DNA of 54,860 nucleotides, the filler included, from Bipalium vagum (taxonomy: Eukaryota): assembly GCA_037834085.1 (NCBI GenBank). It is 3 parts of 3 records of this genome, joined end to end, with 100 filler letters (N's around TTAATTAATTAA, not from the genome) between each part and the next. Parts side by side here need not be neighbours in the genome. Positions count along the whole stretch, not along the records: positions 1 to 16,880 come from JBBMKC010088790.1; 2 more parts are not named here. The stretch is one strand, 5' to 3'. The translations under genes were made by a program, and so were the position numbers. Positions 8,355 through 15,600 of this stretch are shown piece by piece (the stretch's first letter is position 1; each line of letters starts with the position of its first letter). The notes under the pieces were generated by a model, which saw only the letters and a program-made list of their open reading frames with translations, ran no database searches and was not told the origin of the DNA.

Positions 8355-9374
8355 TTGGATAGATCCCCAATTTTTCTGTCATCATCTAATTAATTTTCTT
8401 TTTTATGCTCTTCTTATTACTTTTTTTGCCTTCTCTATGTGGGAATCATCAATCAAGAAGAGGAAAAGATGAGGAGCTATTGGGAAAGATTGCAGTTTCA
8501 TCCAACATTTAAAGCTGATTTTATTTATTTGTGATAGGAAACATTTTAATCTAGACATTTTAATTTGTCATCAAATATTGTATTAGTTATTTAGTGATTC
8601 AATTTAATTAATTTTTTTAAATAAAAAAAATAATGATTAATAATGGTAATAAACAGTAATGAAAAACTAATCGATTGGTAATAAAAACTAATCGATTACA
8701 ATAATTTTTCTCTTCAATATTTTTGGAACTTCAAATTTTAAAGTATGGATCTTACTATCAATAAGTCAAGAAAAAATAAATTTGATCGACATACCAGTAA
8801 AGAGTTTTAAAAAATAAATCAAAACTGATAAATGACACAGCAACCGACAATATATTCATCATTATACTAATAAAGTAAATAATAATAAAAAGAATAAAAT
8901 GATCTAACCTTAAAACATGTCCACAAGGCTGTGTAGCAGGATCAAAGTGGCGGCGGGATCGGAGCGGCGAGTGGGGTCTGAAACTTAATAATAATAAATT
9001 AATTAATAATAATAAATTAAGATAAATTAATAATAAAAAAAATACTTGGGTAAATCAGTAGGCAGAATCAGAGAAAGATGGATAATGAATAATGAAAATT
9101 ACTTGGGGCGTGAGCGCCAGAGTAATTTTTCAGGTTGAAATTTGATATTAGGTTGGGGCATAGGAGGAGTGGAATAATAATAAAAATGATATGATGGGTT
9201 GGGGTTGGTGGAGCATGAAAAAAATAAAATTGAGTTTATAATTATTATTTATTATTTAGTTTTATTTATTATTTATTATTTATTTGTTATTGAGTATATA
9301 ATAATGACGGTATAATAAAAAGTATTGATATATAATGATATATAATAATAACACAAATTTTAAAAAAAAGGAAA

Positions 9375-9522
9375 TGACGTCAGTGATGATTTTGGGGGGG
9401 TTACAGTGGTATGAATGATGACGTCAAATGAGAGGAGGTGGGGAGAAATGAAGTCATTTAAAAATAAACCAATGATAATTGTAGGGATGCTGGCACACAT
9501 GATAAAAACGAGTATAAATACC
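9375..9522 (+). promoter_or_regulatory. Pol II promoter-like block: two perfect CRE/ATF sites, one degenerate CRE, CCAAT box, TATA box
   Basis: TGACGTCA at 9375-9382 and 9419-9426, TGAAGTCA at 9449-9456, CCAAT at 9469-9473, TATAAATACC at 9513-9522, interspersed with G-rich tracts. Confidence 0.55.
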
Positions 9523-10804
9523 GAAGGGAAAATCATAAAAATCGACCGTCAAAAATTCTAAGATTGTTTATTATAACTAGAAAAGAAAATTTGAAAATTA
9601 GAGCTTATTATAACTCATTTTACAAGGCAATAATTTATTAATTAAAGTGTAAGTGAATTATTATATTCACTATAATTAAATAATTACACAGAACGCTAAT
9701 ATAATTTCCCGTTTCTGTTTTTATTGAATTACTTCTTATTTCTTCTTTTTGTGTTTTATTCTAGCAATTAAAATCTGGTAAATTAGTTATCAGATTCGCT
9801 ATTTTACTTCAGGGCATTTACACATTTCCTGGTGTAGATTGAATATCTGCTTTAATTTAATATTGTCATTTTGATCTCAGAAAAAGAAAACCTTTGTAAA
9901 AAAATCGTAAAAATTGTAATTGAAATAAAGGTTTTAAAAAGCCTTATTTTTGATCGGTACACTACCTTAAGGAGTCAGATTAAGATAAGTTGTACACATC
10001 CTCACTCTCACAAAACTTAACATCTACGTCTTATTACTTTTGAGGGCTCTTGAGGCTAAGATAGCAAAGAGCATACTAAAATTCATCTTGTAATAATATT
10101 TCTCCGGGATATATCAATAAAACAATTTGTTTATTTGTTCAGCAAAGTTTTTTAAAAATAAATACATTTTATAAAATTAATATCGTTTTTTGGTTTGTCT
10201 TAGTGACACAAAGTGTACCCTGTTTATAAAAACGTTTTTGACAACTGAATGAGCGTGTGTACCGGGAGAAATAAATAAGTGAGAAATTTATTGAAATAAA
10301 ACTTGAAGGTGGAAAGATGATTAATTTTGAAGTAAAGCAAAAAGGGTGAAATTTCTTAAAAATCTTTTATCTTATCAGTTTTAAATAATGGTTAAATATT
10401 TCTTTCTTTTTTATATTCTTTTTCAAAATACTTTGCTTTTATTTCTTGAAAAATATATTCTTTATAATAAATATATGCAAAGTTCCTACACACAAAATAA
10501 ATTTACAAGAGAATTTCAATTAAAAATAACGATTGATTTTTATAATATCATAACAGAACTCTAAATAATAAGCGGGGAAAGATTACATTTATAAATAATT
10601 TAAATTAGATATAATTAAGAAATATAAAGAAATTTTATAAAAGTTGTTATGTTACAAGAGTTTATAGAAATAAAAATAGGTGGTAAAATAATTATTATAC
10701 ATCCAATGAAAAGAGAGATTGAGAAAAAATAAAATAGATAAAGATAGTGTGAATGATTTAATCATTTAAAAAATTATAATAAATTACCATTTCTTTTTCA
10801 TATT

Positions 10805-12228: not shown

Positions 12229-14436
12229 CCGTAAATACGCGAGTATACAGCGAGATTTTTAAGCTGCAATTTAAGTGAAATTTGGGGAGTCGCGGCATTC
12301 TCGAGACACAACAATAATTTAATTTATTGGACACTGATTTCAGATGTCGGAAACTTTAGAAACTTGTTACGATAGCTATGGATCGAAATCGATCGTTTGT
12401 TGGCTCAAAAGACAAAATATTCACATGTTAATAAGAATGGATTCTGAAGTTCTCATGTTTCGAAACCACCATAAACAAATGACCGATATAGACCGCTTTC
12501 CTGTTCACCGCACATTGAAAATCAATAATACGACCGCGTGTTTCATATTTCAGAGACCACCCACGATGCTATGAATATGAATGATGCGCGAGACTATACA
12601 TACATCCTTAAATTGCCAGTTTTAACAAATAAATTCTTGTATAATCTGGTTCGTGTCATTATTTTGTATATTTACAGAATATCGATAGTATTAAAAATTT
12701 GAAATAAATTAATAAGCAAGCCTTTAGAAAATGAGTCAGAAGAGACAACGATCGTCATATGATGCATCTTCCAAATTACGAGTGGTAGAAGCAGCAAAAT
12801 GTAGCAACAATTCTGCAGCAGCTCGTCAATTTGGCGTTTTGGAAAGTACGATTAGAGACTGGAGAAAATTGAAGAATGAATTGATCATAATGCCACCACA
12901 TAAGAAGGTCTGCAGAGGATTATCATCTGCAAATCCCGAACTTGAGAAGTGGCTTTCGGAACACCGAAATAATGGATATGCAGTGTCACGTACCTCCATC
13001 CGATTGCAAGCATTGCGACTAAAGAAGTATGGAGAGTTCAGTAGTAGTGCTAACTTTATAGCTTCAGCAGGTTGGTGTACCCGTTTCATGGAACGCCATG
13101 GACTGACATTGAGACAACGGACAAAACTCTCCCAGAAACTGCTGAAGGATTTGGAAAACAAAATTAACAGTTTCCACAGATTTGTAATCAAGTTACGAAA
13201 ATGTCACAATTACGACCTTGGAAATATTGGAAACATGGACGAAACACCTATGACCTTTGATTTGCCAGGAAATCGTACAGTTCATGCCAAGGGAGAGAAA
13301 ACCGTTCTTGTGAATACTACCGGACACGAGAAGACGCATTTTACGGTCGTCCTTGCATGTATGGCAGATGGGACAAAATTGAAGTCACTGATTATTTTTA
13401 AGCGGAAAACTCTACCGAAGAATTCGAAATTCCCAATTGGCGTAATTGTCAGAGCTCAACAGAAAGGTTTGATGGATGTAGAAGGTGTTCAATTTTGGAT
13501 GAAAAATATATAGGATCGTAGACCTGGAAGTATGCGGCAGAGGCGGTCACTTTTGTTCTGGGATATGTTCAGTGCCCATCTAGAAAACAATGTGAAATGT
13601 GCCGCCATACGTGAGTGCACAGACATATGTGTTATACCTGGTGGCTTGACATCGCAGCTTCAGCCTCTTGACGTATGCCTGAAAAAACCATTTAAAGATC
13701 GAGTCCGAAAGATGTGGTCGGACTGGATCTGTTCTGATCAGATGAAAAATACTAAAAGTGGCCTGCCCCAACGACCAGATATCATTCTCGTTTCTCATTA
13801 GGTAAAGGATGCTTGGGATTCCATACCATCTGACATGATTCAAAAGTCTTTTCAAAATTTTTTTTTCATCAGCAATGCTTTGGACGGAACTGAAGATAAC
13901 ACCATATATCAAGACGAAGATGAAGACGCGGACGAGGAGGAAATCAGCAGTACAACACTACAGAACTGGCGCAAGAAGAAATGCAACTACTGTTTGCAAG
14001 TGATGAATCGGACACGGAATACGAAGGATTTTAGGAAAGTTTTAATTTATTAAACTAAATTTCACAACTTTCTCTAAATATTTTTAAAAGAATTAAATTG
14101 AAAAAAAATAAAAACTTTTAGTCAGAACGCACCTACTTGTGATTATATTTTGTATTTTTGTTTCTATGTTTATTATATATAATATCACGATTCCCTAGTT
14201 AAAGCTGGTAGAATTATCGCTCAATGTGTGCTTATCGTTACGATGTGGTTAAGAGATTTCAATGTAAAGTTAATGGTGTTTTGAAAAAATATATATTTTA
14301 CCGGTTCACAATACATAGCATTTGGCCAATTTTTACTCTCGCGATATACTAGCGTTTTGCATTTTTAAATACTTTTTCACCCAATTTTGTATGTCTCGCG
14401 TTATAGTCGGGTGGCGTTATACTTGCGTATCTACGG
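12229..14436 (+). mobile_element. pogo/Tc2-group (POGK-like) DNA transposon, 2208 bp, full-length with TIRs and TA target-site duplication
   Basis: Left TIR CCGTAAATACGCGAGTATA; right TIR (reverse complement) CCGTAGATACGCAAGTATA; TA on both sides (12227-12228 and 14437-14438). CG-rich subterminal repeats and an internal transposase. Confidence 0.95.
12731..14053 (+). pseudogene. pogo transposase (Brinker-type DBD + CENP-B/Tc5 HTH + DDE_1), disrupted
   Basis: ORFs 12731..13513, 13532..13801 and 13835..14053 share one frame, separated by TAG stops at 13511-13513 and 13799-13801. Motifs: YDASSKLRVVEAA, FIASAGWCTRFMERH, GNMDETP, LLFWDMFSAH, IPGGLTSQLQPLDVC, ISNALDGTED plus an acidic tail. Confidence 0.93.
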
Positions 14437-14914
14437 TATCTTGTTGATACATACAATTTTTAAATTCAAGTTGAAACAATTTTAATTCAAATTTGTTTTT
14501 TTATTAAATTATGACATCATTCTAGCACATTCGGAGAAATTTTATTTCATATTTTGAAACCATCATTTACAGTTGTCTCTAGTAATTGTATCTAGTTCTT
14601 TAATTAATTATTAATTATAACCAAACATTTACTGACTGCTTCGCTTTCAACATATTCAAAAAATTATTTATATACCCATAAATGAGCTACATTTGTAAAT
14701 CCTGATAATTTTAGGTAATTCTGTATCATTATTAATAATTTTATACTGTTTATTTTGTGCACCCTCTTCATTGATACACTCATAATCTTCGTAACAGTCT
14801 GAACTATTCCTGATCTAATCTAAAAATGAAATTGATAAAATACGAATTTGAATAAAAAATGTAATAATTGGACCTAAAATTGTTCCAACTTGAAATAAAA
14901 ACCCTGTCCAACCT

Positions 14915-15600
14915 CTTTCGTAATTTTATATAACTTGAACCAACTAATGACTGATATTCACCTTAAGTTAATTCTAATTTCTTTAATATACTTTAACGAC
15001 CAATCAGAACCAGTAAATTCTTCTTCCTCTTATAATTATATCTCGAAAAACATTTTTAGATGCATTTTCATTTTTACTGTAATCTTATTTTTTATAAAAT
15101 TTTTTATATTCACATTTTATTTTAATTTGAAAAACAAATTTAATTTAATAGCATAAAATAATTTTAATAAATTTACCTCTTCTCTTAATTCATATAGAGA
15201 TTTTAACTTTTATTTAATTCATACTTTGATTCGGAAATTTTAATTATCTGATAATTATAAAATACTTATCTAAATCAGAAAAAACTAAAAAATCATTTAG
15301 ACAAAATTTTATTTACTAAAATCCTAAATAACGACATGCTACTACTCCTAATGTATTCACCTTGTTTTCCTAACTATTCACTAATAATTAACATTTTACG
15401 GATTAAAACAAAAACTTCGTATTTCTGTTCTTAAACTTATCTTCAATCATTGATAACTATTCCTTTCAATTTATTTATTCATGTTCTCACTTCATATTTA
15501 TTCTTAAATCATGAAAGTAGGAATTCCATTAAATATTTAATTAAAATGTATTTTTTTGGACAATTTATTTATTTCTTACCATTTTTTCATAAATTAAATG
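14915..15600 (-). pseudogene. Polinton/Maverick protein-primed DNA polymerase B, N-terminal remnant
   Basis: The minus strand of 15029-14915 reads EEEEFTGSDWSLKYIKEIRINL/(+1 frameshift)GEYQSLVGSSYIKLRK. This matches the recalled Maverick pPolB motif E…GSGW-x-L-x-x-I…INI-x-x-Y-x-PL-x-GSSYI-x-LP. The flanks are decayed and the polymerase core is absent. Confidence 0.7.

What the first reader, a model, noticed from the sequence alone, without database searches (positions are those of the whole stretch)
8900..15600. Hidden endogenous Polinton/Maverick-like virus fossil between DOCK and VPS16
Seen: co-oriented minus-strand remnants of a Maverick-type pPolB N-terminus (14915-15029) and an HNH nuclease (10805-11284), intronless decayed coding-like DNA between them, and a GC-rich CRE/TATA block at the left. 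Almost none of this shows in the ORF track. Knowledge: Polintons/adintoviruses encode pPolB and carry variable accessory genes. Inference: an internally deleted copy of a possibly undescribed lineage-specific Polinton-like virus family. Intact relatives may exist elsewhere in the genome.
Basis: partly seen in the sequence, partly recalled or inferred. Interest (0 to 1): 0.7.

Follow-up and report, generated by a model that had tools for sequence, protein, structure and literature searches.

The report
Decayed Polinton remnant with HNH nuclease
This stretch of an animal chromosome holds a scrap of a viral-type DNA polymerase gene and a broken DNA-cutting gene, split by inserted transposon DNA, and is likely the fossil of a virus-like jumping element (a Polinton), a kind of relic common in animal genomes.

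Summary
The minus-strand piece 15029-14921 is the N-terminal motif of a Polinton-type protein-primed polymerase (frameshift-aware score 44.5, next site 3.5, shuffles at most 14.4). The piece at about 11300-10800 is a dead HNH nuclease (E 1e-10). Its nearest relatives form a clade (98/93) with HNH genes in adintovirus-type contigs, one of them between capsid and integrase genes. The left block has paired CRE motifs on a G-rich strand, like the end of one Polinton contig. Contigs of one public run show that the region is repeated, and that two other loci join the polymerase piece to the DNA left of the pogo transposon. No integrase, ATPase, protease, catalytic polymerase, TIR pair or 6-bp TSD was found. 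The DNA between the two pieces is mostly a pogo element and a MITE-like insert, not decayed coding DNA. The three pieces differ 10- to 100-fold in summed contig depth, so they may not have spread as one unit. Verdict: a degraded, probably internally deleted Polinton/adintovirus fossil. It is an ordinary kind of relic, with a mildly notable giant-virus-type homing nuclease. Intact relatives could not be sought, because no genome is held.

The parts
8930..9530 (+). G-skewed block with two CRE motifs (9375, 9419), GAAATGACGTCA-like repeats (9371, 9445), CCAAT (9469) and TATA (9513); candidate terminal (TIR-type) region; outer edge not found
   Evidence: same motif grammar as the first 170 nt of Polinton contig L255; summed contig depth 2,144-13,333 against about 22 for unique DNA
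9530..10160 (.). very high-copy repeat DNA of unknown identity (subterminal part of the element or a separate nested repeat)
   Evidence: summed depth up to 19,049; no Pfam, PHROGs, Rfam or Polinton-protein match
10407..10476 (-). second, partial copy of the HNH C-terminal tail
   Evidence: 77% identical to 10765-10846; matches L113 and L111
10776..11300 (-). HNH endonuclease pseudogene: zinc ribbon at about 11290-11245, basic linker, HNH core; stops and frame breaks
   Evidence: clade with L111, L112, L113, L129 at 98/93
11690..11890 (-). second zinc-ribbon/linker module, paralogous to 11143-11306
   Evidence: HMM E 0.01; 68-76% self-match; other loci skip about 570 nt between 11168-11239 and 11756-11805
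11900..12226 (-). low-copy repeat segment that other loci join to the pPolB piece; may continue pPolB, not shown
   Evidence: joints 12171->14921 and 12177->14920; protein-level continuation not significant, 161 of 402 control tiles score as high
12229..14436 (+). nested pogo/Tigger DNA transposon with TIRs and TA target duplication
   Evidence: HTH_Tnp_Tc5 E 1.7e-13, BrkDBD, DDE_1; ends; internally deleted relatives
14456..14905 (.). MITE-like insert with 49-nt, 76% complementary inverted arms
   Evidence: skipped by the joints of two other loci; summed depth 312-625
14921..15029 (-). N-terminal motif block (GSxW...GSSYIxL) of a Polinton-type protein-primed DNA polymerase B, one frame break
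15030..15300 (-). repeated DNA upstream of the motif, probably more pPolB N-terminus; homology weak
   Evidence: HMM E 0.5, colinear; 18 of 366 tiles score as high; depth falls from 278 to 53 to 27
19560..19880 (-). second, more decayed remnant of the same HNH gene family (5' part), with no pPolB piece or CRE block beside it
   Evidence: HMM E 0.03 and 0.2 in two colinear frames; 69-70% DNA identity to 11726-11859 and 11082-11191; best of 530 tiles, 58 against next 50

Best explanation
The region holds a polymerase N-terminal motif and an HNH nuclease pseudogene on one strand, a CRE-rich block to their left and two later transposon insertions, and it is likely the decayed, internally deleted fossil of a Polinton/Maverick (adintovirus-type) element. 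Inferred history: an element carrying a free-standing, giant-virus-type HNH homing nuclease as cargo integrated in the germline between VPS16 and DOCK through its own rve integrase. Deletion removed the catalytic polymerase, the integrase and the virion genes. Part of the HNH gene was duplicated, and a MITE and then a pogo element inserted just behind the pPolB motif. The left CRE/G-rich block is probably what is left of one terminal region. The copy is dead and, by inference, has no function now. Shown: pPolB motif homology, HNH homology and its nearest relatives, repetition, the two insertions, and linkage of the pPolB piece to the 12177 side in two other loci. Inferred: that all pieces come from one element, the terminal nature of the CRE block, and the order of events.
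For: The pPolB motif score is far above all controls, and the match ends at 14921, the same place where two independent contigs jump to 12171 and 12177. All 13 reference blocks come from pPolBs of Polinton-like contigs or from similar proteins. The HNH clade at 98/93 holds L113, L111, L129 and L112. L113 encodes a penton-like protein, a Pox_A32 ATPase, pX, a double-jelly-roll MCP, the HNH and a PLA2-rve integrase. L129 has an rve integrase beside the HNH, and L111 has the HNH inside a PLA2X gene. A CRE cluster on a G-rich strand starts Polinton contig L255, with genes pointing towards it as here; such a cluster occurs in 1 of 61 Polinton-type loci and 0 of 216 other loci. The region is repeated while its flanks are single-copy. 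Most Mavericks in vertebrate genomes (96%) are such fossils, often without TIRs (PMC8097293, passages).
Against: No catalytic pPolB, integrase, ATPase, protease or capsid match lies in 8.9-15.6 kb. No TIR pair or TSD was found. Continuation of pPolB left of pogo is not significant. Summed depth differs widely: about 280 at the pPolB piece, 130-210 at the spacer, 2,400-3,400 at the HNH and 13,000-19,000 at the left block. The second HNH remnant in the window has no pPolB piece or CRE block beside it. No listed contig bridges spacer to HNH or HNH to left block. Most relatives of the HNH lie in giant-virus or phage contigs: none of the 80 loci has a Polinton gene context, and 4 of the 140 loci do (L113, L129 and L151 by integrase; L111 by PLA2X). 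The full HNH domain was absent from 24 IMG/VR pPolB loci. The window's HNH is a long branch (2.2) and the bootstrap had not fully settled. The terminal analogy rests on one contig. All copy evidence comes from one run, possibly the source of the assembly.
Confidence: 0.68

Rival explanations
1. A pile-up of independent repeats. A small Polinton pPolB scrap, a separately amplified HNH-bearing repeat and an unrelated very high-copy element (for example a solo LTR with a CRE/TATA promoter) lie side by side because insertions accumulate between these two genes.
For: Depth differs 10- to 100-fold between the pieces. A lone HNH remnant lies 8 kb away. Two other insertions are already nested here. 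No bridging contig was listed. CRE/CCAAT/TATA also fits an LTR promoter (recalled, not tested).
Against: Both coding remnants independently point to Polinton-type elements and lie on the same strand. Two other loci join the pPolB piece to the DNA 280 nt from the first HNH module. The CRE block resembles a Polinton end.
Confidence: 0.22
2. The HNH came from an endogenised giant virus (Nucleocytoviricota) fragment, and only the pPolB scrap is of Polinton origin.
For: The family is widespread in giant viruses: GVMAG contigs, and fold matches of the relative P0005 to mimivirus L246 (E 5e-16) and a Bodo saltans virus intron-encoded endonuclease (E 2e-14).
Against: The three best blastp matches and the supported clade consist of adintovirus-context or intron-borne copies, not giant-virus contigs. 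No other gene from 220 HNH-bearing loci matches the window.
Confidence: 0.06
3. The motifs are chance matches in AT-rich DNA.
For: Pfam misses both pieces, and the word-index searches returned nothing.
Against: phmmer gives E 1e-10, and the motif scores lie far outside shuffled and reversed controls.
Confidence: 0.01

Closest known systems
Polintons/Mavericks, Alpha adintoviruses with PLA2X (Starrett et al., PMC8502044; passages read)
   Same: pPolB N-terminal block. The nearest HNH relative L113 has the PLA2X-integrase, pX, MCP and ATPase module. Degraded endogenous copies are described as widespread in animals.
   Different: Here only about 36 codons of pPolB are recognisable, with no integrase, virion genes, TIR pair or TSD. 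The word 'endonuclease' does not occur in that paper's main text.
Degraded Maverick fossils (Barreat and Katzourakis, PMC8097293; passages read)
   Same: Stops, frameshifts, large insertions and loss of TIRs; 96% of 3,511 vertebrate loci are of this kind.
   Different: The host is an invertebrate. That set has eight core genes, and 'HNH' does not occur in its main text.
HNH homing endonucleases of giant viruses (mimivirus L246; Bodo saltans virus intron-encoded endonuclease, PMC5871332, passages read; PHROG 1035)
   Same: Zinc ribbon, basic linker and WHIDH...CFxWxNLRP...N..K core; catalytic His and both Asn kept in the window.
   Different: The window copy is a pseudogene in an animal nuclear genome, with no group I intron around it.
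HNH genes of protist Polinton-like viruses (PMC12220804, passages) and the HNH domain inside nematode/oomycete pPolB2 (10.1101/2023.08.22.554363, passages)
   Same: HNH nucleases associated with Polinton-type elements are already in print.
   Different: Those are mostly fused to helicases or inserted in pPolB. This one is a separate gene of a different, giant-virus-type family.
Planarian Polintons (Schmidtea mediterranea, PMC8532177; passages)
   Same: Polintons are an annotated, piRNA-targeted class in a planarian. The host here may be a flatworm (inference, and unchecked earlier notes).
   Different: Their sequences (Repbase) were not available, so identity with a described family is untested.

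Membership tests
Polinton/Maverick (adintovirus) | protein-primed PolB: N-terminal block | tested here: met
Polinton/Maverick (adintovirus) | protein-primed PolB: exonuclease and polymerase domains | tested here: not met
   no score above reversed controls
Polinton/Maverick (adintovirus) | retrovirus-like rve integrase | tested here: not met
Polinton/Maverick (adintovirus) | packaging ATPase and cysteine protease | tested here: not met
   family HMMs from Polinton-like loci, best E >=0.2 anywhere in the window; L113 ATPase
Polinton/Maverick (adintovirus) | [quoted passage not shown] | tested here: inconclusive
   none inside 8.9-15.6 kb; weak likeness of 7634-7947(+) to the L113 MCP, 76 against next 66, not seen with two other MCPs
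Polinton/Maverick (adintovirus) | long terminal inverted repeats at both ends | tested here: not met
   no mirrored pair; one end-like CRE block
Polinton/Maverick (adintovirus) | (AG)3 or (AGT)2 end motifs with 6-bp target site duplication | tested here: not met
   AGTAGT at 7291 and ACTACT at 15341 share no further inverted match and their flanks differ (read); depth there is low
Polinton/Maverick (adintovirus) | dispersed multi-copy family in the host | tested here: met
   (one run, contigs only)
Polinton/Maverick (adintovirus) | intact relatives elsewhere in the genome | not testable with these tools
   no genome held
HNH (His-Me finger) homing endonuclease, mimivirus L246 type | His-Asn-Asn core with family motifs | tested here: met
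   H39, N61, P64, N70, K73 invariant in 23 of 23 rows; fold of relative P0005
HNH (His-Me finger) homing endonuclease, mimivirus L246 type | intact reading frame | tested here: not met
   stops and frame changes upstream of and behind the 78-aa core
HNH (His-Me finger) homing endonuclease, mimivirus L246 type | housed in a group I intron | tested here: not met
   no Rfam hit in the window; present in relatives L111 and L112
pogo/Tigger DNA transposon (nested) | HTH_Tnp_Tc5 + DDE_1 transposase, TIRs, TA duplication | tested here: met

The most novel reading that the evidence does not exclude
This is one copy of a non-autonomous Polinton satellite family. The family lost capsid, integrase and catalytic polymerase genes but kept a terminal promoter block and a giant-virus-type HNH homing nuclease. 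It was amplified to hundreds of copies in an animal germline, with the HNH-bearing part out-copying the polymerase part about tenfold. A homing nuclease that moves between giant viruses, group I introns and animal Polintons would then have become a major dispersed repeat of an animal genome.
Probability: 0.2. Interest if true: 0.6.

Novelty: new member of a known kind. Interest (0 to 1): 0.3.

Why it matters
As read here it is an ordinary paleoviral fossil, useful mainly for annotation: it is invisible to Pfam and ORF tracks and would be missed by standard tools. The modest added value is the cargo. A homing-nuclease family known from giant viruses also rides in animal-type Polintons, free-standing in one relative and inside a group I intron in another, which points to gene traffic between giant viruses and animal Polintons. 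If the HNH-bearing derivative really is a high-copy non-autonomous family, it would show a route by which such a nuclease gene spreads through an animal genome.

Tried and rejected
No whole genome is held, so genome-wide BLAST was not possible. Pfam on 12 six-frame readings of the element and 18 further frames found nothing apart from one weak DUF7610 hit. PHROGs on 12 frames found nothing. Word-index searches with the pPolB piece (527 candidates) and the HNH (23 candidates) gave no hit. The PDB sequence search with the HNH profile gave no relevant hit. Foldseek on PDB gave nothing at E<=0.001, only weak Cas9-HNH and Hpy99I rows. A log-odds frameshift scan with window background was dropped because it favoured GC-richer ORFs and one shuffle (41.2) beat the true site (36.0). 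Continuation of pPolB on the left of pogo looked plausible by eye but was rejected as not shown. An exonuclease-II-like stretch at 9598-9416(-) and a penton-like stretch at 9765-9839(+) are at chance level, so the idea that the HNH sits inside pPolB has no support. A joint 8898->16396 (side 22 nt) was set aside as probably spurious, since it would skip a VPS16 exon. The AGTAGT/ACTACT end-motif candidates were rejected (no TIR, no TSD). No RNA holder was listed, which says nothing on expression. One motif scan of viral contigs gave 0 because of my spacing error (corrected). Nine literature searches listed no paper on this HNH family in animal Polintons. I read passages only, no supplements, and Repbase and most subscription journals are not covered, so this does not show that it is absent from print.
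Full report
Setting. The window is AT-rich (16-42% GC per kb) animal DNA; no whole genome is held. The host is an invertebrate. Two unchecked earlier notes on the same genome call it a planarian; I did not test that.

The polymerase piece. Six-frame reading shows EEEEFTGSDW...IRINL in one frame and GEYQSLVGSSYIKL in another. Pfam, PHROGs and a word-index search did not recognise it. I collected Polinton-like contigs from IMG/VR and two similar proteins; L001 and L002 encode pPolB, ATPase and capsid or integrase genes. 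An HMM of 24 pPolBs gave its three best chunks of 1,830 all at this site, each weak on its own (E 0.16-0.5). A 40-column block from the 13 of 24 sequences that carry the motif, allowing one frameshift, scored 44.5 at 15026(-), against 3.5 for the next site, at most 14.4 in 40 shuffled windows and 4.8 on the reversed window. Those blocks were chosen on the motif, and two loci were fetched with a pattern taken from it. I therefore repeated the test with a profile of 21 of the 24 sequences (L100, L101 and L104 left out): 46.4 at 15011-14921, next 25.4, shuffle maxima 21.5-26.8 in 10 shuffles. Upstream homology is weak (18 of 366 tiles score as high). No exonuclease or polymerase domain scores above reversed controls.

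The nuclease. The stop-free 78 residues at 11087-10854 gave 295 hits at E<=1e-3 among 1.84 billion representatives, best 1.1e-10; the Atlas ranks viral HNH clusters first (0.94). A profile of the hits matches 11105-10776 at E 7e-28 and a second zinc-ribbon module at 11890-11693 at E 0.01. A partial second tail lies at 10476-10407. The catalytic His and both Asn are kept, but the frame is broken. The model of the intact relative P0005 (pLDDT 95) matches mimivirus L246 and a Bodo saltans virus intron-encoded endonuclease (E 5e-16 and 2e-14); PDB gives only weak HNH rows.

Where the nuclease's relatives live. Most are in giant-virus or phage contigs: none of the 80 loci has a Polinton context. 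Among the 140 loci added, three carry an rve integrase (L113, L129, L151) and L111 carries a PLA2X gene. Three of these four rank among the nearest relatives. L113 encodes a penton-like protein, Pox_A32 ATPase, pX, double-jelly-roll MCP, the HNH and a PLA2-rve integrase, the Alpha adintovirus module of PMC8502044 (passages). In L111 the HNH sits in a group I intron inside the PLA2X gene. A maximum-likelihood tree was built from 46 rows: the 43 or 44 nearest non-redundant of 172 loci, with L129 added and L151 ensured, plus the window. It puts the window with L111, L112, L113 and L129 at 98/93 (quick tree 93). The window row is a long branch and the bootstrap had not fully settled. No group I intron is present in the window.

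The left block. TGACGTCA occurs 3 times in the window, twice within 44 nt (9375, 9419); 0 of 300 shuffles have two within 100 nt. The block is G-skewed rather than GC-rich. Such a CRE cluster was found in 1 of 61 Polinton-type loci, at the very start of contig L255 with the virion genes pointing towards it, and in 0 of 216 other loci. This is an analogy from one contig with no alignable sequence. No matching inverted copy, end motif or 6-bp duplication was found.

What lies between. A pogo/Tigger transposon fills 12229-14436 with a TA duplication. Next to it, 14456-14905 has 49-nt inverted arms. A possible continuation of pPolB on the left of pogo is not significant: 161 of 402 control tiles and 215 of 300 shuffles score as high. 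No integrase, ATPase, protease or capsid profile matches the element. DNA at 7634-8217(+), outside the finding, shows weak likeness to the L113 MCP and pX; the L113 ATPase reaches similar scores (68, 66) at unrelated places, so this stays open.

Other copies. One public run holds the region, as contigs only, and may be the source of the assembly. At 80% likeness, unique DNA has depth about 21-23. Summed depth is 13,333-19,049 at 9272-10159 and 2,410-3,388 at 10604-11935, and 131-207 at 11950-12217, 278-284 at 14898-15165 and 22-47 beyond 15300. The tool warns that these sums are not copy numbers; I use them only to say that the region is repeated and unevenly so. Two contigs at single-copy depth join 12171 to 14921 and 12177 to 14920 (sides 30 and 42 nt, letters between not known; 15 of 21 joints shown). 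They skip both insertions at the place where the pPolB match ends. Other contigs skip about 570 nt between the two zinc-ribbon modules, as does a second HNH remnant at about 19560-19880, so the doubled module is particular to this copy. No listed contig bridges spacer to HNH or HNH to left block, and the second remnant has neither neighbour.

Mechanism. The best reading (0.68) is a Polinton/adintovirus-type element with an HNH cargo gene that integrated between VPS16 and DOCK, lost its middle and one end, and collected a MITE and a pogo insertion. It is now inert. Homologies, repetition, insertions and the pPolB-spacer link are shown; single-element origin, the terminal nature of the left block and the order of events are inferred. 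The main rival (0.22) is a pile-up of separate repeats, favoured by the uneven depths. Because integrase, virion genes, TIRs and TSD were tested and not found, I call it a remnant derived from a Polinton, not a full member.

Comparison and novelty. Degraded Mavericks are the rule in vertebrates (96% of 3,511 loci; PMC8097293, passages). Degraded adintoviruses are widespread in animals (PMC8502044, abstract and passages). Polintons are annotated in a planarian (PMC8532177, passages). HNH genes are known in protist PLVs (PMC12220804, passages) and inside nematode pPolB2 (10.1101/2023.08.22.554363, passages). I also read passages of PMC6431247, PMC11296320, PMC3014272 and PMC5871332; no whole texts or supplements, which may list such accessory genes. 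Nine searches listed nothing on this HNH family in animal Polintons, but Repbase is not covered. Unchecked earlier notes describe HNH genes and group I introns in Polintons of other animal genomes; they are leads, not support. Verdict: new member of a known kind, interest 0.3. The boldest reading not excluded is a high-copy non-autonomous family that kept the homing nuclease (probability 0.2, interest 0.6).

Noticed in passing
L111:1123-1435 (+), HNH ORF within about 380-1175: A group I intron (Rfam RF00028, 101 bits) carrying this HNH family interrupts a PLA2X-like gene of an adintovirus-type element, at a site that is uninterrupted in L113. Group I introns are in print for protist PLVs (PMC12220804, passages); the passages read did not show an HNH-coding one in an animal-type PLA2X gene.
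   Followed up: partly
L112:583-938 (+): A second HNH relative overlaps a group I intron (68.5 bits); the host gene is not on the 1-kb contig.
   Followed up: partly
L113:1-6660: AT-rich (23% GC) adintovirus-type segment: penton-like, ATPase, pX, MCP, free-standing HNH, PLA2-rve integrase.
   Followed up: yes
window 7634-8217 (+): Repeated (summed depth 600-1,100), decayed coding-like DNA with weak likeness to L113 MCP (76 against next 66) and L113 pX (76 against next 44, 270 tiles); possibly another piece of the same lineage. Unresolved.
   Followed up: partly
window 19560-19880 (-): Second decayed remnant of the HNH gene, on the far side of the last VPS16 exon.
   Followed up: yes
window 7291-7353: Short stretch that starts with AGTAGT, ends with (ACT)3 and holds a small GAAA-loop hairpin; no TSD; no Rfam hit.
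   Followed up: no
window 21032-21078: 81% match to the arm of the MITE-like insert (14462-14508); probably another end of that family.
   Followed up: no
window 24466-24947 and 33512-33998: Two copies of a ~480-nt repeat, 81-94% identical, 9 kb apart.
   Followed up: no
window 29085-30173 (-): Intronless rhodopsin-family GPCR ORF, 362 aa (PF00001); Atlas neighbours are invertebrate chemosensory/peptide receptors.
   Followed up: partly
window 53295-53666 (-): Kinesin motor exon (PF00225); KIF26-like by recalled motif, not tested.
   Followed up: no
window 3944-4387 and 16376-16800: Further high-copy repeats (summed depth 1,021 and 4,691) outside the element.
   Followed up: no
L255:1-170: End of a Polinton contig with four TGACGTCA motifs within 100 nt on a G-rich strand.
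   Followed up: yes
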